Shown here: positions 694 through 13,758 of the stretch, one piece after another | Position numbering within the stretch: position 1 is the stretch's first letter | Layout of the letters: every line of letters starts with the position of its first letter | Notes under the pieces: generated by a model | The model's database searches: none | What the model was told of the DNA's origin: nothing | Seen by the model: the letters and a program-made list of their open reading frames with translations, nothing else | Position numbers and translations under genes: made by a program | Assembly (NCBI GenBank): GCA_046881825.1 | Contig: JBKSMS010000014.1 | Location: 40,325-104,324, forward strand | Length of the DNA stretch: 64,000 bases | Source: Alphaproteobacteria bacterium | Lineage (GTDB): Bacteria > Pseudomonadota > Alphaproteobacteria > Rs-D84 | Reading direction: 5' to 3'

Positions 694-1036
694 CAAGACA
701 TCTTATCAGGTTGGATTATATTCTGAATTTTTGGCGCGCATATATTTGCGTCTTCATGGATATCGCATATTAAAAAGCAGATATGTGACGGGCAAAAACA
801 CAAACCGCGCAGAAATAGATATTATTGCGAAACGCAAAAACACTATCGTTTTTGTCGAAGTCAAAGCGCGCAAAACAACCAATGCCGCTTGGGAAGCCAT
901 CACCGCACGACAATCAGTTCGTCTGCGTCGCGCCGCAGAAACTTATTTGATACAAAATCATTGGGCTGGCGATGCGCGCTTTGATGTGATTGTGGTTTGT
1001 GGTCATAAGATATATTGGGCAAAAAATACAATTTAA
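683..1036 (+). CDS. yraN: YraN-family (UPF0102) endonuclease-like protein
   Basis: 117 aa; GLYSEFLARIYLRLHGYRIL ... EIDIIAKRKNTIVFVEVKAR matches the YraN pattern. Confidence 0.75.
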   Translation: MLSNKTSYQVGLYSEFLARIYLRLHGYRILKSRYVTGKNTNRAEIDIIAKRKNTIVFVEVKARKTTNAAWEAITARQSVRLRRAAETYLIQNHWAGDARFDVIVVCGHKIYWAKNTI

Positions 1037-1293
1037 TTTTTTATCACTGCGCTTTTAATCAAAGTGACATCTTCTTTAATTCCGTCTATTTTTAATTGTA
1101 ATTGACCGATACCAGATTCTAAAATTGTAGTTCTGTTTTCTAATGCGGTTATTCGCTGGTCTTGCCGTTCAATTTCAGAAAGAGAAGAATCTTGACGCGC
1201 AACCCAATAAATCAGTCCAGCAATAAAAGCTATTAAAAACCAACTGTCGCGCAAAAGGTCTATAAAATTAAAAAAATTCTGCTGTTTTGTCAT
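1033..1293 (-). CDS. small membrane-anchored coiled-coil protein at the end of the phage-like cluster
   Basis: 86 aa; one hydrophobic helix (WFLIAFIAGLIYWV) then heptad-like sequence; its stop overlaps the yraN stop (TTAA). Confidence 0.4.
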   Translation of the reverse strand: MTKQQNFFNFIDLLRDSWFLIAFIAGLIYWVARQDSSLSEIERQDQRITALENRTTILESGIGQLQLKIDGIKEDVTLIKSAVIKN

Positions 1294-1350
1294 TGTTTTT
1301 TAATAATTTACCATAAAAACATGCGGCAATATGTAATTGTTGTTTGTTTG

Positions 1351-1551
1351 TTATGTTGGATTATTTCCTCTTTTTATAAAATTTTCTATTTGATGAACCA
1401 AAGCACATTGTGCCGCCCACCAGCGCAATTCGTCATTACTGACATTTTGTCCGATGATGCGTTCTGTGGTAAGAGTTCTTAAGTGTTTAAGAATTTCTTT
1501 GCCAGCAGGTGTAGCAAAAGTTCGTGCATATTGTTTTTCAATTTCGTTCAT
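1351..1551 (-). CDS. small phage-associated hypothetical protein
   Basis: ORF directly downstream of portal; start moved to MNEIEKQ (CAT at 1549-1551) to reduce overlap. Confidence 0.35.
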   Translation of the reverse strand: MNEIEKQYARTFATPAGKEILKHLRTLTTERIIGQNVSNDELRWWAAQCALVHQIENFIKRGNNPT

Positions 1552-1564
1552 TGTGATTGTTCCT

Positions 1565-2788
1565 TTAAATTGACATTTCTTCACGAGCCATTTGCGCTAT
1601 GGGCGCGATATATTTTAATTCCGCGTCACTGTGCAAAGATATTTTATCTATCAATCCACGACGTGATAAAATTTGAAGTCCTCTTTCACACAAAGGTCTT
1701 ATGAATTCGTGCAACAAGCGACCATATGTTGCACCCAATATTCTAACCATATCGGCATTGCGTGCTAATATTTCTGTAGCTGTCATTTCTTTGTCAGATA
1801 ACAATCCAAGTCTGTCTGCCAAAAGGCTGTGTCTGATTCTGTCACGCAAATCGCGTAAAACTATTTGTGAAACATCAAAATCAGCACCACTGGAAAGAGG
1901 TGTTAAACCAGAACTTCCAACCGCCTTTGGTATAATTGCCCCAGGTGTTAAATTGATATTAGAAAGATTTATGACACCATCATCATCAGCCTGCCATATA
2001 CCACTGACCGCGATAGTTGCGTTTTTCAATACTAATTCTACAACTTTGTTAGCTGTTTTTATATCTGGCAAAGCACGCAAAACAGGACCACGACCATATT
2101 GTTCCCCGCTTACCAATGCCCAACGAAAGATAATATAAGGATTGGTTTCAAATGTTCCACGCGCAACAATATTGTTTTCAAAATCACCACCTGCATCTAT
2201 CCAAGCCGTAAAATCTTTACCAACCAAAGATTGAACCAATCTAATAGGTGTTTGTGGATTATTTTTAACTGTTTCTTTCATATTATTTGGCAGTGTCCAT
2301 GTTGGATACTTTTCCATCAAATCGCATGCCGGCATAGATGTAGTATGAAATATTGCGCCTGGCAATATCGCTATGTCTGTCATAGGAATTGCAGTAAATG
2401 AAAACGCTGAATCTGCCCCCAGTGGATTTTCAGCCATAAACAAACAAGCGGTTCCAAGAACGACTAAATCTATATAGCATTGATGTATAGTTGTATAAAA
2501 ATTGGAATCGTTCAAATGCGCCCGCAACACATTTGTTGCAACTTCCGCATTTGGTGATAAATCACTTTCACGAACCAAGTTTATCCAAAGTGATTCTGGT
2601 GGTGTCAACAAAGAATACATTGATGCCGCCAAATTATCAACTGCATCTGCGGCAGTCGAATCAAACAAAGTCGCTACATCTGCATCATCTGTTGGGATAG
2701 TATACCGCATAGCAGTTTTCCATCTGGACAACCAGACATCCCTTTCATCCAGCGCACGTTTATATAATTGCATAAGATTTTTTTGCAT
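1565..2788 (-). CDS. phage portal (T7/BPP-1-type head-to-tail connector family)
   Basis: 407 aa; N-terminus LYKRALDERDVWLSRWKTAMRYTIP typical of podoviral connectors; lies next to terminase. Confidence 0.65.
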   Translation of the reverse strand: MQKNLMQLYKRALDERDVWLSRWKTAMRYTIPTDDADVATLFDSTAADAVDNLAASMYSLLTPPESLWINLVRESDLSPNAEVATNVLRAHLNDSNFYTTIHQCYIDLVVLGTACLFMAENPLGADSAFSFTAIPMTDIAILPGAIFHTTSMPACDLMEKYPTWTLPNNMKETVKNNPQTPIRLVQSLVGKDFTAWIDAGGDFENNIVARGTFETNPYIIFRWALVSGEQYGRGPVLRALPDIKTANKVVELVLKNATIAVSGIWQADDDGVINLSNINLTPGAIIPKAVGSSGLTPLSSGADFDVSQIVLRDLRDRIRHSLLADRLGLLSDKEMTATEILARNADMVRILGATYGRLLHEFIRPLCERGLQILSRRGLIDKISLHSDAELKYIAPIAQMAREEMSI

Positions 2789-2807
2789 TTTATTTCCTTT
2801 TGGTTAT

Positions 2808-12043: not shown

Positions 12044-12065
12044 TAAATAACACAATTACATGTGA

Positions 12066-12386
12066 TTATTTTTTCTTTGCAACTTTTTTAGCAGCTGGTT
12101 TTTTTGCTACTTTTTTTGCAGGTGCTTTTTTTGCAACTGGTTTTTTTGCAGCAACTTTTTTTGCAACTGGTTTTTTTGCAGCAACTTTTTTTGCAACTGG
12201 TTTTTTTGCAGCAACTTTTTTTACAGCTGGCTTTTTTGCAACTACTTTTTTTGCAACTGGTTTTTTTGCAGCAACTTTTTTTGCAGCTGTTTTTTTAACA
12301 GCTACTTTTTTTGCAGGTGCTTTTTTTGCAGCTGGTTTAGCAGCTGTTTTTGTGCAAGCACATTTTTTCTTAGAACCAAAGAACAT
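12066..12386 (-). CDS. lysine/alanine-rich histone H1-like protein made of tandem AAKKPVAKKV repeats
   Basis: 106 aa, almost entirely K/A/V/P decapeptide repeats encoded by about 30-bp DNA repeats; SD AAAGGAGAG. Confidence 0.5.
   Translation of the reverse strand: MFFGSKKKCACTKTAAKPAAKKAPAKKVAVKKTAAKKVAAKKPVAKKVVAKKPAVKKVAAKKPVAKKVAAKKPVAKKVAAKKPVAKKAPAKKVAKKPAAKKVAKKK
12100..12300. repeat. about 30-bp tandem coding repeats (gcaactggtttttttgcagcaacttttttt units)
   Basis: Read directly from the sequence. Confidence 0.8.
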
Positions 12387-12478
12387 AATTCTCTCCTTTT
12401 AAGTTTTTGGATAGAACAAAATTTTTTTTGTTCTTGATTCTATTTTATATGAAATGAAATAAATAGTAAAGAATAAAA

Positions 12479-13138
12479 TTACTTTGAATATAATTTTTTA
12501 AAACCATTTTCAATTTTTCTTATATATTCTTCATCATGATCACGCCAATATTTTGGATCGCGCATCATGTTGCGTAATGTTTCATCAGTTAAATTTTCAC
12601 TTTCATTTTTATTTGTTAAAACATCAGGTTCCATTGATTGCATCATTCTGTAAACACCTTGAATTCCTTGGGGTGTAGAACATAATTCATCAAACGCATC
12701 ATGGGGAAGAAACCTTTCACCAAACGCATTTATTTCACGCAAAGCATTGTTCATTTTTTCTTCATCACCAAAAAATTTTTTCAATTCATTTATCGCGTTT
12801 GTTTGATTTTGTAATTCAAATAAATTTTTTAAAGTTGGTTGTAAAAATTCTTCTGCGATGGCATAAATTTTTTCAACTTGTGTTGAAGTTAATCCAATTT
12901 CATGAAATTTTTCACGAACCGATTCGTCATCAAACATAGAATTTTTAGGATAATCTTCGACATTATCAGGTACACCTATTGCATGATTAAATTTTTGTTT
13001 AATATTTTCATCACTGTCCGAAGTTGGAATTGTAACCATGTTGCTCATCTTTTTTTCTAATTCACAATAAGATTTAACCAACGCAGAAGTATTTAATTCG
13101 CCATTTTCATTTAAGAATTTTTCTGGTATTTGTTCCAT
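12479..13138 (-). CDS. scaffolding-like protein
   Basis: 219 aa, acidic/helical; MEQIPEKFLNENGELNTSALVKSYCELEKK is typical of phage scaffolds; lies upstream of capsid. Confidence 0.5.
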   Translation of the reverse strand: MEQIPEKFLNENGELNTSALVKSYCELEKKMSNMVTIPTSDSDENIKQKFNHAIGVPDNVEDYPKNSMFDDESVREKFHEIGLTSTQVEKIYAIAEEFLQPTLKNLFELQNQTNAINELKKFFGDEEKMNNALREINAFGERFLPHDAFDELCSTPQGIQGVYRMMQSMEPDVLTNKNESENLTDETLRNMMRDPKYWRDHDEEYIRKIENGFKKLYSK

Positions 13139-13329
13139 TATTTTTTCCCTTTGGTTGAAGATTCTTGTTTAAGAAAATAAATACCTGACAAAGTAAATAT
13201 AGTTTGCATCATTGTAAAAATATCTTCGTCACCAATTAAGTAAGCACCTATGGCGGACACAATACCAACCGTAGACACAACATAAGTCTTGCGATTTTTT
13301 AAATATCCACCTTTGATTATCTTGTTCAT
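13138..13329 (-). CDS. small two-TM membrane protein (holin-like)
   Basis: 63 aa; two hydrophobic segments and a charged C-terminus; sits between hydrolase and scaffold. Confidence 0.35.
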   Translation of the reverse strand: MNKIIKGGYLKNRKTYVVSTVGIVSAIGAYLIGDEDIFTMMQTIFTLSGIYFLKQESSTKGKK

Positions 13330-13347
13330 TGTACACCCTTTTATTAT

Positions 13348-13758
13348 TTATAGATAAAACAGTATGTCTTCATATTCCGCGATATATCCGCGTGCAATCG
13401 CCCATTGCGGAATAATATCTGCGTGATGAAATTTCGTAGCCCCAAAAACAGAATCTGATAAACAACCATGCATCATAGTTTTTATCACACGCAAACACAT
13501 AAGAAACTTTCTGTCGTTAACATCAACATTCATATATTTATGTCGTTTAGATTTTTCATCTAAAGCATCAAATATATTTTTATCGTTTGATATATCTTCA
13601 AACGATTTATCATATTTTATATGAATATTGTAAATCATTGATGCCATTGCTTCTGCTATTTGCAAAGAAGCACCTTGGGTTTCAGCGAACACTATTCGTG
13701 CCAGTTTATACGGGACAATTTGTGTATCGTCTGGATTTTTTATAAGAAATAGTTGCAT
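13348..13758 (-). CDS. SleB/CwlJ-family cell-wall hydrolase
   Basis: ARIVFAETQGASLQIAEAMASMIYN ... ATKFHHADIIPQWA pattern. Start set at MQLFLIK because the longer ORF runs through the birA terminator hairpin. Confidence 0.6.
   Translation of the reverse strand: MQLFLIKNPDDTQIVPYKLARIVFAETQGASLQIAEAMASMIYNIHIKYDKSFEDISNDKNIFDALDEKSKRHKYMNVDVNDRKFLMCLRVIKTMMHGCLSDSVFGATKFHHADIIPQWAIARGYIAEYEDILFYL

What the first reader, a model, noticed from the sequence alone, without database searches (positions are those of the whole stretch)
1033..13758. Stripped-down podovirus-like head/tail cluster fitted seamlessly between yraN and birA (GTA-like or domesticated particle?)
Seen: 14 same-strand ORFs run in this order: SleB-type hydrolase, 2-TM holin-like, scaffold, K/A-rich protein, capsid, 76-aa, adaptor-like, 569-aa tail protein, 115-aa, fibre-like, terL, portal, and two small ORFs. 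All are long open frames with short gaps or overlaps. The left end overlaps the yraN stop (TTAA at 1033-1036). The right end begins about 30 nt after the birA terminator hairpin. No integrase, small terminase, excisionase or replication gene lies on this strand. An intrinsic terminator sits just after the capsid + 76-aa pair (10720-10742), as T7 has T-phi after gene 10. Established: portal (head-to-tail connector family), TerL, scaffold and capsid of this kind define T7/BPP-1-like podoviruses, and gene transfer agents such as RcGTA are similarly minimal structural clusters, though siphovirus-like. Inference: about 9.4 kb of intact structural genes without lifecycle genes fits a domesticated or GTA-like particle better than a decaying prophage. 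A podovirus-type GTA would be unusual.
Basis: partly seen in the sequence, partly recalled or inferred. Interest (0 to 1): 0.7.

Follow-up and report, generated by a model that had tools for sequence, protein, structure and literature searches.

The report
Domesticated podovirus particle genes in Enterousia
A tiny-genome gut bacterium (Candidatus Enterousia) and at least 80 related species keep, at one chromosomal spot and under strong selection, a full gene set for a short-tailed virus-like particle; its DNA-packaging gene is cut in two by the cell's own replication helicase gene, which points to a new kind of gene-transfer-agent-like device.

Summary
The cluster is real and the structural assignments hold: scaffold, capsid, adaptor, nozzle, fibre stub, TerL, portal and endolysin. 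The ORFs are not all on one strand. terL is split into an ATPase half (6951-7559) and a nuclease half (2808-3656) by a 3.3-kb plus-strand block: chromosomal-type dnaB, a two-HTH regulator and a 214-aa unknown.

The window comes from Candidatus Enterousia (order Rs-D84, genomes of about 0.9 Mb). The scan matched 196 species-representative genomes. All 80 fetched keep the same gene order, including the split terL. No ORF in them was seen to be disrupted.
- dN/dS is 0.03-0.09, the same as the flanking housekeeping genes.
- Capsid and portal are more conserved than lpxI, dnaB or birA.
- Module and host distances co-vary (Mantel r = 0.90).

No integrase or phage replication gene was found. A near-consensus promoter followed by one or two terminators gates the lysis and structural genes in 57 of 57 genomes. 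This resembles the lambda PR'-tR' arrangement.

Verdict: a vertically inherited, selectively maintained, podovirus-derived particle cluster, most likely GTA-like. It is independent of RcGTA and I found no description of it. Packaging and transfer of DNA remain untested.

The parts
13878..13906 (-). Late promoter: TTGACT, 17 nt, TG-extended TATTAT. It starts a few bases after the birA stop codon.
   Evidence: Promoter scan, 10 of 12 matches plus the TG extension. TTGAC[TA]TT..TRTGATAtTAT is present in 57 of 57 genomes.
13790..13850 (-). Short conserved leader with two intrinsic terminators (13850-13836 and 13813-13790) between the promoter and the sleB ATG.
   Evidence: One or two terminator-like hairpins occur in 57 of 57 genomes, two in 44. 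Compensatory base changes are seen.
13348..13758 (-). SleB/Hydrolase_2-type endolysin (136 aa, from ATG 13758).
   Evidence: PHROG endolysin family at 6.8e-6. 28% identical to the PF07486 protein of prophage L093. Intact in 61 genomes.
13138..13329 (-). 63-aa holin-like protein with two hydrophobic segments.
   Evidence: No family hit. The assignment rests on its position after the endolysin and on the sequence. Conserved at 40-95% identity in 61 genomes.
12479..13138 (-). Scaffold protein, T7 gp9 type.
   Evidence: PF05396 at 6e-7 and phrog_3742 at 1e-14.
12066..12386 (-). K/A-rich histone H1/Hc2-like DNA-binding protein nested between scaffold and capsid.
   Evidence: PF07382 at 3e-14 and NF038053. 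Present at this position in 64 of 64 genomes, length 52-156 aa. Absent from the phage relatives.
11969..12044 (-). Two intrinsic terminators after the K/A-rich gene.
   Evidence: The hairpins are conserved, with compensatory changes.
11846..11968 (-). Conserved non-coding block upstream of the capsid gene: GGATAATCC palindrome, GTGGACCC, TGGCGCA..TGCAtAACC. Probably the capsid promoter and its regulator sites.
   Evidence: Conserved in at least 85% of 25 species. No Rfam family matches.
11018..11845 (-). Major capsid protein.
   Evidence: PF19821 at 4.6e-74. PDB 9eg4_A at 2e-26. 78-98% identical across species; dN/dS 0.04.
10763..10993 (-). 76-aa protein that follows the capsid gene in this cluster and in its phage relatives. 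Possibly a decoration or cement protein.
   Evidence: phrog_18004 at 3e-13. Same position in phage relatives L091 and L092.
10719..10743 (-). Intrinsic terminator after capsid + g76, analogous to T7 T-phi.
   Evidence: with covariation such as CGGG/CCCG changing to TGGG/CCCA.
10177..10695 (-). Head-to-tail adaptor, T7 gp11 type.
   Evidence: phrog_394 at 6e-31. PDB 8ck1_E 'Connector Protein'.
8452..10161 (-). Tail nozzle, T7 gp12 type, 569 aa.
   Evidence: phrog_376 at 9e-90. PDB 8ck1_A 'Tail Nozzle' at 1e-39. 982 homologues, those listed nearly all about 570 aa.
8086..8433 (-). 115-aa lysine-rich protein in the slot where T7-like phages carry their large internal core proteins.
   Evidence: No family hit. 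Positional counterparts in L093 (123 aa) and L147 (153 aa) share an MG... RAKxGxxG motif.
7528..8076 (-). Tail-fibre stub, 182 aa. Only the T7 gp17-type N-terminal tail-attachment domain and a short C-terminal part are present.
   Evidence: PF03906 at 8e-6 and 18 PHROG fibre families, all matching residues 4 to about 110. Detected by tblastn in 53 of 77 genomes.
6951..7559 (-). Terminase large subunit, N-half (ATPase: Walker A, Walker B, GTPHT). Its stop codon abuts the o214 stop codon.
   Evidence: PF03237. Colinear with the intact TerL P0235. Motifs conserved in at least 90% of 78 genomes. dN/dS 0.06.
6306..6950 (+). Nested 214-aa protein of unknown function.
   Evidence: No hit in Pfam, PHROG or NCBIfam. 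AlphaFold2 model is all-alpha with pLDDT 78; no Foldseek match in the PDB. Present in all genomes examined.
5269..6276 (+). Nested 335-aa regulator with two XRE-type HTH domains and a conserved C-terminal domain.
   Evidence: PF01381 twice. dN/dS 0.038. 58% of positions conserved in at least 90% of genomes.
3655..5202 (+). Nested replicative helicase DnaB, chromosomal alphaproteobacterial type.
   Evidence: NF006606 equivalog 609 bits (cut-off 540) and TIGR00665. Below the phage_DnaB cut-off. Co-diverges with module and flank.
2808..3656 (-). Terminase large subunit, C-half (lid and RNase-H-like nuclease), 282 aa. Its ATG overlaps the dnaB ATG in the tetranucleotide CATG.
   Evidence: PF22530 and PF17289. 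Colinear with intact TerL. Upstream codons conserved as protein. (C/T)ATG junction in 52 of 61 genomes. dN/dS 0.085.
1565..2788 (-). Portal protein, T7 gp8 type.
   Evidence: PF12236 at 5e-80. 76-94% identical across species; dN/dS 0.03.
1351..1551 (-). Small Bbp19-like protein that follows the portal gene, as in the phage relatives.
   Evidence: PF25181 at 1e-4, below the cut-off. Same position in L092 and L093.
1033..1293 (-). 86-aa protein with an N-terminal membrane segment and a coiled coil. Spanin-like by inference.
   Evidence: Only a weak phrog_736 hit. 64-95% identical in 70 genomes; dN/dS 0.04. Its stop overlaps the yraN stop.
15036..15278 (-). o105: an 80-aa HTH protein homologous to the DNA-binding part of the CI/S24 repressor of the free prophage relatives. 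Probably the last remnant of the ancestral regulatory region.
   Evidence: 39-54% identical to repressor genes lying divergent from the portal gene in L093, L148, L156 and L157. 71-99% identical among Enterousia genomes.

Best explanation
This is a domesticated, vertically inherited particle-gene cluster. It derives from a small temperate T7-type podovirus and is now a fixed part of the chromosome of Candidatus Enterousia and its relatives in the order Rs-D84. It most likely works like a gene transfer agent (GTA).

Shown:
- The cluster encodes a complete short-tailed particle: scaffold, capsid, small capsid-associated protein, portal, adaptor, nozzle and fibre stub. It also encodes a DNA-packaging enzyme and an endolysin with a holin-like partner.
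- It has no integrase, excisionase, phage replication genes or recognisable small terminase. It lacks the large internal ejection proteins of T7-like phages.
- All genes are intact and under purifying selection as strong as that on housekeeping genes, across at least 80 species.
- The terminase is encoded as two polypeptides. The cut falls exactly between the GTPHTxDTIYKT[DE] strand and the S.PFLRGY...WPE lid segment, and no residues are lost.
- Host genes are nested in the cluster: dnaB, xre and o214 on the opposite strand inside terL, and a histone-H1-like gene between scaffold and capsid.

Inferred:
1. Both TerL halves assemble non-covalently into an active packaging motor.
2. Expression is gated. 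A near-consensus promoter sits directly after birA and is followed by one or two intrinsic terminators before the lysis genes. Further terminators follow the K/A-rich gene and g76. Full expression therefore needs terminator read-through or processive antitermination, as at lambda PR'-tR'.
3. No conserved promoter was found for the terL C-half/portal operon. The late transcript probably continues antisense through o214, xre and dnaB to reach it.
4. A subpopulation of cells lyses and releases particles filled with chromosomal DNA by headful packaging. These particles deliver DNA to sister cells, which counteracts mutational decay in these ~0.9-Mb genomes.
For: Structure and family assignments.

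Organism: the capsid look-up places the identical protein on NCBI MAG GCA_046881865.1 (JBKSNC01, Enterousia).

Distribution:
- 982 nozzle homologues form a smooth gradient; the 120 best listed run from 100% to 62% identity and nearly all are about 570 aa, many on long chromosomal contigs.
- 196 GTDB species representatives are hit. All 80 fetched show one gene order, including terLN, the o214-xre-dnaB block on the opposite strand, then terLC.
- The same arrangement appears in about 50 IMG/VR contigs with GC from 33 to 50%.

Intactness and conservation: full-length matches everywhere. Median identity is 84% for capsid and 82% for portal, against lpxI 79%, dnaB 73%, birA 64% and trmA 63%.

Selection (NG86 dN/dS on the 14 closest pairs):
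- Cluster genes: capsid 0.04, portal 0.03, terLN 0.06, terLC 0.085, nozzle 0.07.
- Host genes: birA 0.06, lpxI 0.04, trmA 0.11.

Co-divergence: Mantel r = 0.90 between module and flanking host genes, 0 of 999 permutations as high.

TerL:
- The two halves align colinearly (45% identity over 452 aa) with an intact 487-aa TerL from a prophage relative.
- The 26 codons upstream of the shorter start are conserved as protein.
- Walker A, Walker B, motif III and the nuclease aspartates are conserved in at least 90% of 76-78 genomes.

Origin:
- Free relatives L092, L093, L146 and L148-L159 carry portal-Bbp19-scaffold-capsid-(g76)-adaptor-nozzle-...-intact terL-SleB hydrolase, some of them with a CI/S24 repressor upstream.
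- o105 is homologous to the HTH of that repressor.

Gate:
- The promoter is conserved in 57 of 57 genomes, with one or two terminators before sleB in all 57.
- The same promoter-terminator module precedes the late genes in L093.

Missing lifecycle genes: no integrase or other phage gene anywhere in the 64-kb window or 10 kb to its left.

Precedents:
- RcGTA-like head clusters are kept under purifying selection in reduced alphaproteobacterial endosymbionts (PMC9254644).
- FpGTA is a podovirus-like GTA-like element (PMC12946183).
Against: - Nothing here shows that particles are made, that they contain DNA or that DNA is transferred. The organisms are uncultured.
- A two-piece TerL cut inside the ATPase domain has no characterised precedent that I could find. 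Its activity is inferred only from selection and motif conservation.
- No small terminase and no antiterminator were identified.
- The fibre is a 182-aa stub and there are no ejection proteins, so delivery into a recipient is uncertain.
- If the capsid is T=7, like its pelagiphage relative Hodr (34-kb genome), one head could hold the whole 12.9-kb cluster. That differs from the classical GTA definition.
- Only the 80 best of 196 genome hits were inspected. I could not measure how many Rs-D84 genomes lack the cluster.
- sleB evolves fast (dN/dS 0.33, from only two pairs).
Confidence: 0.7

Rival explanations
1. The particle is made but has been repurposed for something other than gene exchange among kin. 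Options include delivering DNA or protein to a partner or host cell on which these metabolically dependent bacteria live, or killing competitors (a bacteriocin-like use).
For: - Rs-D84 bacteria lack most biosynthetic pathways and are thought to depend on other cells (PMC12306168).
- George et al. argue that GTA-derived heads in endosymbionts may have been repurposed for host interaction (PMC9254644).
- The fibre stub, the missing ejection proteins and the nested histone-like gene are not typical of a simple DNA-injecting phage.
Against: - A complete DNA-packaging motor with conserved ATPase and nuclease residues, a portal and lysis genes is retained. That is what a DNA-carrying, lysis-released particle needs.
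- Nothing in the cluster resembles a toxin or effector.
Confidence: 0.2
2. It is an active but minimal temperate phage, or a satellite, that happens to sit at a preferred integration site next to birA.
For: - IMG/VR lists many copies as roughly 10-kb viral contigs.
- Close free relatives are compact prophages (L093).
- The cluster has its own lysis genes and a repressor-like gene nearby.
Against: - No integrase, excisionase, replication initiator or flanking repeats were found.
- Gene order and junction with birA are identical in 80 species, with distances tracking host genes.
- Host-type dnaB and an H1-like gene are nested inside.
- The gene order is broken relative to the free relatives.
- The IMG/VR entries are fragments of the same chromosomal locus, and several run into birA, o105 or yraN.
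Confidence: 0.03
3. It is an inert prophage remnant that survives only because essential genes (dnaB, birA) and their regulatory signals are embedded in it, so it cannot be deleted.
For: - dnaB lies inside terL.
- The dnaB -35-like element is embedded in terLC codons, with conservation at synonymous sites.
- The late promoter abuts birA.
Against: - Embedding protects DNA from deletion. It does not protect reading frames from decay.
- All roughly 16 phage-derived ORFs are nevertheless intact in 53-79 genomes each, with dN/dS of 0.03-0.09 along their whole length.
- The genomes are streamlined to about 0.9 Mb with roughly 90% coding density (PMC12306168).
Confidence: 0.03
4. terL is rejoined by programmed DNA excision of the dnaB block in terminally differentiating producer cells, as with the skin element in sigK of Bacillus or the nifD element of Anabaena.
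For: - A gene is interrupted cleanly, with no residues lost.
- Producer cells would lyse anyway, so losing dnaB would be tolerable.
Against: - The block contains no recombinase.
- The two junctions carry no direct or inverted repeats.
- The N-half ends in a stop codon and the C-half begins with a conserved ATG. This fits two separate polypeptides.
- In lineage L147, terL is split at the same residue by only about 270 nt of non-coding DNA.
Confidence: 0.03

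Closest known systems
RcGTA-type gene transfer agents of Alphaproteobacteria (Rhodogtaviriformidae), including the reduced head clusters of Rickettsiales and Holosporaceae endosymbionts (George et al. 2022, PMC9254644)
   Same: - A phage-derived head, tail and packaging cluster fixed in the chromosome and vertically inherited across an alphaproteobacterial lineage.
- Under purifying selection, with no integrase or replication module.
- Retained even in strongly reduced genomes.
   Different: - A different viral ancestor. The portal, scaffold, capsid, adaptor, nozzle and fibre are of T7 type (PF12236, PF05396, PF19821, PF03906), not an HK97-type siphovirus module.
- Lysis genes lie inside the cluster.
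- The terminase is split in two.
- Host genes are nested in the cluster.
- DNA packaging has not been shown.
FpGTA of Faecalibacterium prausnitzii (PMC12946183)
   Same: A GTA-like element of a gut bacterium with predicted podovirus-like morphology and lysis genes.
   Different: - FpGTA is in Firmicutes, lies in two loci, is strain-variable, and has experimental evidence of host-DNA packaging.
- The present cluster is alphaproteobacterial, lies in one locus, is conserved across an order-level lineage, and has no experimental evidence.
Small temperate T7-module prophages of Alphaproteobacteria (loci L093, L146, L148-L159) and pelagiphage EXVC031P Hodr
   Same: - Homologous portal (34-44%), capsid (43-62%), scaffold, adaptor, nozzle, TerL (40-54%) and SleB hydrolase.
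- The same promoter-plus-terminator gate before the late genes (L093).
- A repressor HTH homologous to o105.
   Different: - The relatives have an intact one-piece terL, a full CI/S24 repressor and no nested host genes.
- Their order is portal-Bbp19-scaffold.
- Hodr also has large internal core proteins of 783 and 1247 aa.
- They sit in unrelated hosts with GC from 44 to 73%.
Lambda late operon control (PR' promoter, tR' terminator, Q antiterminator)
   Same: A strong promoter followed within about 60-110 nt by intrinsic terminator(s), then lysis genes first and morphogenesis genes after them. Further terminators lie inside the operon.
   Different: No Q-like protein was found. Passive partial read-through, as at T7 T-phi, could suffice instead.
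Intervening elements that split genes (skin in sigK, the nifD element) and intron- or intein-split phage terminase genes
   Same: A gene is interrupted at a precise point with no loss of coding sequence.
   Different: - No recombinase, no junction repeats, no intron (no Rfam match, though only the L147 spacer was searched at a permissive threshold) and no room for intein halves.
- The insert consists of opposite-strand cellular genes, including the replicative helicase, and fills the gap completely. The stop codons abut and the start codons overlap in CATG.

Membership tests
Gene transfer agent (viriform) in the broad sense | Phage-derived particle genes resident at a fixed chromosomal locus and inherited vertically with the host | tested here: met
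   Same order and same birA junction in 80 of 80 species genomes. Mantel r = 0.90 against flanking host genes.
Gene transfer agent (viriform) in the broad sense | Particle genes maintained by purifying selection | tested here: met
   dN/dS 0.03-0.09, equal to neighbouring housekeeping genes. All ORFs intact.
Gene transfer agent (viriform) in the broad sense | No means of autonomous replication, excision or integration | tested here: met
   No integrase, excisionase or phage replication genes in the 64-kb window or 10 kb to its left. The nested dnaB is the chromosomal type. No flanking repeats.
Gene transfer agent (viriform) in the broad sense | Particles package essentially random host DNA, in pieces too short to carry the whole GTA gene set | not testable with these tools
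   This needs particle DNA sequencing. Capsid size is unknown. A T=7 head, as in the relative Hodr (34 kb), would exceed the 12.9-kb cluster.
Gene transfer agent (viriform) in the broad sense | Particles deliver DNA to recipient cells | not testable with these tools
   Adaptor, nozzle and fibre stub are conserved. No ejection proteins were found.
Gene transfer agent (viriform) in the broad sense | Release by lysis of a producer cell | tested here: inconclusive
   The endolysin is supported. The holin and spanin assignments rest on sequence features only.
RcGTA-like GTA (Rhodogtaviriformidae) | Homology to the RcGTA head-tail cluster (HK97-type capsid and portal, siphovirus tail genes g1-g15) | tested here: not met
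   All family hits are T7-type podovirus families (PF12236, PF05396, PF19821, PF03906, PF22530). No RcGTA-type family was hit.
T7-type podovirus virion module | Portal, scaffold, capsid, adaptor (gp11-like), nozzle (gp12-like) and fibre with the gp17 N-domain | tested here: met
T7-type podovirus virion module | Large internal core/ejection proteins (gp14-16-like) and a small terminase | tested here: not met
   Only a 115-aa ORF lies between nozzle and fibre. The relative Hodr has ORFs of 783 and 1247 aa there. No terS-like hit was found.
Lambda-type Q-antiterminated late operon | Promoter followed by terminator(s) upstream of the lysis and morphogenesis genes | tested here: met
   57 of 57 genomes. 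Same module in L093.
Lambda-type Q-antiterminated late operon | A Q-family antiterminator gene next to the promoter | tested here: not met
   The gene upstream is birA. o139 and the L093 ORFs show no similarity to each other or to known families.
Excisable intervening element (skin/sigK type) | Element-borne site-specific recombinase and short repeats at both junctions | tested here: not met
   The block holds dnaB, xre and o214 only. No junction repeats.

The most novel reading that the evidence does not exclude
This is a second, independent alphaproteobacterial gene-transfer-agent lineage of podovirus origin, fixed across the whole order Rs-D84, and it runs on a functional two-piece terminase. 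The two terL halves are separated by the cell's replicative helicase gene and a conserved regulator on the opposite strand. The antiterminated late transcript must therefore run antisense through dnaB and xre to reach the nuclease half and the portal. Particle production would thus be coupled to shut-off of replication, and of a repressor, in the cells committed to lysis.
Probability: 0.2. Interest if true: 0.9.

Novelty: new variant of a known kind. Interest (0 to 1): 0.78.

Why it matters
If these particles are made, four things follow.

1. GTA-like domestication would have happened at least twice in Alphaproteobacteria, from unrelated phage types. The second case is a podovirus.
2. Bacteria with genomes below 1 Mb spend about 1.4% of their DNA on the cluster and conserve its capsid better than core enzymes. 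That makes the long-standing question 'what are GTAs for in reduced, host-dependent bacteria?' directly testable in abundant rumen and gut organisms.
3. A terminase cut inside its ATPase domain and still under selection would be a natural split-enzyme experiment for the packaging-motor field.
4. Essential host genes nested in a viral operon, with overlapping start codons and abutting stop codons, would be a striking example of how far a virus-derived element can merge with a chromosome.

There is also a practical point. Virus-prediction pipelines already file this locus as roughly 10-kb 'viral genomes' in IMG/VR, which inflates virus counts for ruminant metagenomes.

Tried and rejected
- **Split intein.** The N-half ends 10 residues after GTPHT and the C-half starts directly with TerL sequence, so there is no room for intein halves. 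Rejected.
- **Intron.** In Enterousia the gap is completely filled by opposite-strand genes. The 270-nt spacer of L147 gave no Rfam hit at E up to 1.
- **Excisable element.** No repeats at the junctions and no recombinase.
- **Sigma-54 promoter upstream of the capsid gene (TGGCGCA-N-TTGCA).** The GG-to-GC spacing varies from 10 to 13 nt among species. Rejected.
- **o214 function.** No hit in Pfam, PHROGs or NCBIfam. The AlphaFold2 model (pLDDT 78, all helical) has no Foldseek match in the PDB (best E = 2.3).
- **Antiterminator search.** o139 compared with the ORFs next to the late promoter of L093 gave no alignment. The small L093 ORFs searched against the window gave nothing below E = 0.1, apart from a weak positional match of its 123-aa ORF to g115.
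- **Rfam on the whole window.** Only four tRNAs.
- **Metagenome scan for relatives of L147.** No confirmed hit.
- **Virome scaffold MT835812.1.** It carries a 49%-identical DnaB but none of the cluster genes, has 53% GC and is unrelated.
- **Literature.** No paper mentions phage, capsid or GTA in Enterousia or Rs-D84. There is no hit for 'split terminase'.

Full report
**What is in the sequence.**
Profile searches support most of the names.
- Scaffold: PF05396.
- Capsid: PF19821, 4.6e-74.
- T7-type fibre N-domain: PF03906.
- Portal: PF12236, 5e-80.
- Terminase ATPase and RNase-H nuclease domains: PF03237, PF22530 and PF17289.
- A weak Bbp19-like hit, and a histone H1/Hc2-like K/A-rich protein.

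PHROGs and PDB sequence searches add three assignments. The 172-aa protein is a gp11-type adaptor. The 569-aa protein is a gp12-type tail nozzle (PDB 8ck1_A, 1e-39). The first gene is an endolysin.

The boundary details are correct.
- The 86-aa ORF overlaps the yraN stop by 4 nt.
- The endolysin ATG at 13758 lies 32 nt after a hairpin terminator.
- A terminator follows capsid + 76-aa ORF.

Positions 3655-6950 are occupied by three plus-strand genes. They cut terL into two ORFs: the ATPase half at 6951-7559 and the nuclease half at 2808-3656.

The nested genes are as follows.
- DnaB. It passes the NCBIfam equivalog model for the chromosomal replicative helicase (NF006606, 609 bits against a cut-off of 540) and fails the phage-DnaB model.
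- A 335-aa regulator with two XRE HTH domains.
- A 214-aa protein with no detectable relatives of known function. Its AlphaFold2 model is helical (pLDDT 78) and matches nothing in the PDB.

The stop codons of o214 and terLN abut at 6950/6951.

The true terLC start is the ATG at 3656. The 26 codons upstream of the shorter start are conserved as protein in 76 genomes. They also fill the only gap in the alignment with an intact TerL. That ATG overlaps the dnaB ATG (3655) in the tetranucleotide CATG. This head-to-head junction is found in 52 of 61 genomes.

**Whose genome it is.**
The identical capsid protein occurs on many metagenome contigs and on NCBI MAG GCA_046881865.1 (JBKSNC01). That MAG is Candidatus Enterousia, order Rs-D84, Alphaproteobacteria. 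Genomes in this lineage are 0.75-1.0 Mb, come from animal guts, lack most biosynthesis and are presumed to depend on other cells.

The paper describing the lineage does not mention phage, capsid or GTA. I found no other paper that does.

**Comparative test.**
The nozzle protein has 982 homologues. The 120 best listed form a smooth gradient from 100% to 62% identity, and nearly all are about 570 aa.

A scan of one genome per GTDB species found 196 species with a relative, and I fetched the best 80. In every one the order is:

(lpxI, trmA, o105, o139) birA | endolysin, holin-like, scaffold, [K/A-rich], capsid, g76, adaptor, nozzle, g115, fibre, terL-N, <o214, <xre, <dnaB, terL-C, portal, Bbp19-like, g86.

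The K/A-rich gene is present in 64 of 64 loci where the region is covered. The birA junction is invariant. The yraN junction is rearranged in the distant species.

| Measure | Phage-derived genes | Host genes |
|---|---|---|
| Median protein identity to the window | capsid 84%, portal 82% | lpxI 79%, dnaB 73%, birA 64%, trmA 63% |
| dN/dS, NG86, 14 closest pairs | capsid 0.04, portal 0.03, terL-N 0.06, terL-C 0.085, nozzle 0.07, adaptor 0.07 | birA 0.06, lpxI 0.04, trmA 0.11, dnaB 0.06 |

All orthologues are full length and open. Pairwise distances of the phage-derived module correlate with those of the flanking host genes (Mantel r = 0.90, 0 of 999 permutations as high).

About 50 IMG/VR 'viral contigs' are fragments of the same locus, with GC from 33 to 50%.

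Together this rules out a decaying remnant and a recently integrated phage. The cluster has been inherited with the chromosome through a deep radiation and is kept functional.

**The split terminase.**
The two halves together align colinearly with an intact 487-aa TerL, P0235 (45% identity over 452 aa). The cut lies between ...GTPHTxDTIYKT[DE] and S.PFLRGY...WPE. That places it after motif III and before the lid, inside the ATPase domain.

These motifs are conserved in at least 90% of 76-78 genomes:
- Walker A (RHSGKSTVVG)
- Walker B (DLIICDD.E)
- GTPHT
- the nuclease motifs YWDPS and HDDGLDA

The junctions carry no repeats and the insert has no recombinase. There is no room for intein halves or an intron. 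The simplest reading is two polypeptides that assemble. That is an inference, supported only by selection on both halves.

A more distant cluster, L147 (GC 38%), has terL split at the same residue by only about 270 nt of non-coding DNA. That spacer contains a consensus promoter and a hairpin. The split may therefore predate the arrival of the dnaB block.

**Where it came from.**
The closest free elements are compact prophages or phages of other Alphaproteobacteria: L093 at GC 44%, and L146 and L148-L159 at GC 61-73%. A human-gut virome scaffold (L092) also belongs here.

Their order is:

[CI/S24 repressor, divergent] ... portal, Bbp19, scaffold, capsid, (g76), adaptor, nozzle, small ORFs, fibre, intact terL, SleB hydrolase, small membrane proteins.

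Pelagiphage Hodr shares portal, capsid, adaptor and nozzle. Unlike the Enterousia cluster, it has the large internal core proteins typical of T7-like phages.

The Enterousia order is not a plain linearisation of that map. The portal-Bbp19 block follows terL, and the lysis genes precede the scaffold. The small HTH protein o105, beyond birA, is 39-54% identical to the DNA-binding part of the phage repressors. The ancestral prophage therefore probably reached from o105 to g86. On that view birA, like dnaB and the H1-like gene, is a host gene now lying within it. This last point is an inference.

**How it is probably controlled.**
Directly after the birA stop codon lies a near-consensus extended -10 promoter, TTGACTTT-N-TRTGATATTAT. 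It is present in 57 of 57 genomes. A conserved initial transcribed sequence follows, and then one or two intrinsic terminators before the endolysin ATG. All 57 genomes have at least one and 44 have two. The stems vary by compensatory changes.

Only about 30 nt remain between the last terminator and the ATG, which leaves no room for another promoter. The lysis and structural genes can therefore be transcribed only by reading through terminators.

More conserved terminators follow the K/A-rich gene (two) and g76 (one). L093 has the same promoter-plus-terminator module in front of its late genes.

This is the architecture of the lambda PR'-tR' late gate, in which lysis genes also come first. No Q-like protein was found. 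Factor-dependent antitermination and leaky read-through both remain possible.

A conserved non-coding block upstream of the capsid gene (GGATAATCC palindrome, GTGGACCC, TGGCGCA..TGCAtAACC) probably holds a regulated capsid promoter.

I found no conserved promoter for the terL-C/portal/Bbp19/g86 group inside dnaB. Conservation there follows the codon pattern of dnaB. By contrast, the dnaB -35-like TTGAA is embedded in terL-C codons with synonymous-site conservation. In 35 of 75 genomes the nested block contains no terminator-like hairpin in the late direction.

It is therefore plausible that the late transcript runs antisense through o214, xre and dnaB to reach terL-C and the portal. This would tie particle production to interference with dnaB and xre expression. 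That is a hypothesis, not a result.

**What it most likely does.**
The retained set is: capsid shell with scaffold and portal, a packaging ATPase-nuclease, a complete though minimal tail, and an endolysin with a holin-like and a spanin-like partner. That is what a lysis-released, DNA-carrying particle needs.

Missing are the integrase, replication genes, small terminase, ejection proteins and the distal part of the fibre.

RcGTA-type head clusters kept under purifying selection in reduced endosymbionts are a precedent (PMC9254644). FpGTA is a precedent for podovirus-like morphology (PMC12946183).

I put the claim 'domesticated, selectively maintained particle cluster' at about 0.9. I put 'works as a GTA that moves host DNA between cells' at about 0.5-0.6. 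The main rival, at about 0.2, is that the particle has been repurposed for interaction with partner cells or competitors.

**Novelty.**
The kind, a domesticated phage particle or GTA-like viriform, is known. The following are new.
- The viral ancestor: a T7-type podovirus, unrelated to RcGTA.
- The host lineage and the depth of conservation.
- The two-piece terminase.
- The nesting of the replicative helicase, a regulator and a histone-like gene inside the operon, with overlapping start codons and abutting stop codons.

I found no description of any of this in the searchable literature. IMG/VR holds the locus only as anonymous predicted viruses.

**Limits.**
- Only 80 of 196 genome hits were inspected.
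- The prevalence of the cluster among all Rs-D84 genomes and the copy number of dnaB could not be checked.
- dS is near saturation for most pairs, so dN/dS rests on the 14 closest pairs.
- The holin, spanin, decoration-protein and promoter assignments rest on sequence features and position.
- No expression, particle or packaging data exist.

Noticed in passing
L147 (IMG/VR UViG_3300028422_001972) 8179-9925: A distant relative of the cluster (GC 38%, capsid 71% identical) has terL split at exactly the same residue. Only about 270 nt of non-coding DNA lies between the halves. That spacer contains a perfect TTGACA-17-TATAAT promoter and a long hairpin with a T-run. A host ABC-F gene follows terL-C, and no portal lies on the contig. 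A GH108 lysin and a 174-aa opposite-strand ORF are nested between g76 and the adaptor.
   Followed up: partly
window 3654-3657: The start codons of terL-C (minus strand) and dnaB (plus strand) overlap in the palindrome CATG, so the two divergent genes have no intergenic DNA at all. This holds in 52 of 61 related genomes. Each gene's promoter must lie inside the other's coding sequence.
   Followed up: yes
window 11846-11968: A non-coding block upstream of the capsid gene is conserved across species that are saturated at synonymous sites: a 9-bp palindrome GGATAATCC, then GTGGACCC and TGGCGCA..TGCAtAACC. It has no Rfam match. It could be regulator binding sites or a structured leader.
   Followed up: partly
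window 12066-12386: The histone H1-like K/A-rich gene varies in length from 52 to 156 aa among species by gain and loss of AKKP/AKKV repeats. It has its own pair of terminators. It is absent from all free phage relatives.
   Followed up: partly
L093 (Logan SRR25400504 contig) 1227-13000: A compact prophage-like element of only about 12-14 kb lies next to lnt. It has an S24 repressor, portal, Bbp19, scaffold, capsid, adaptor, nozzle, intact TerL, SleB hydrolase and small membrane proteins. It has no large ejection proteins and no obvious replication genes. High-GC versions occur in IMG/VR (L146, L148-L159). This may be an undescribed family of very small temperate podoviruses, or it may itself be defective.
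   Followed up: partly
L097-L145 (IMG/VR): IMG/VR lists many roughly 10-kb 'viral genomes' that are simply this chromosomal locus cut out of Enterousia-like contigs. They include the host dnaB and sometimes birA or yraN. They inflate virus catalogues for rumen and faecal metagenomes.
   Followed up: yes
window 43849-44364: A separate 171-aa ORF of the Phage_lysozyme family (PF00959) is followed by two small unknown ORFs, far from the cluster. It could be another phage-derived remnant or a cell-wall enzyme.
   Followed up: no
window about 53000-58500 (L096 539-5439): A defence island: DpnII-type restriction enzyme, two or three DNA methyltransferases and an AIPR abortive-infection protein. It sits in a genome of only about 0.9 Mb.
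   Followed up: no
window 14566-14985: o139 is a 139-aa ORF of unknown function that overlaps the birA start by 35 nt. It lies between the repressor-like o105 and birA. It is conserved in position in all genomes but evolves faster (dN/dS 0.15). It may be another leftover of the phage regulatory region.
   Followed up: partly
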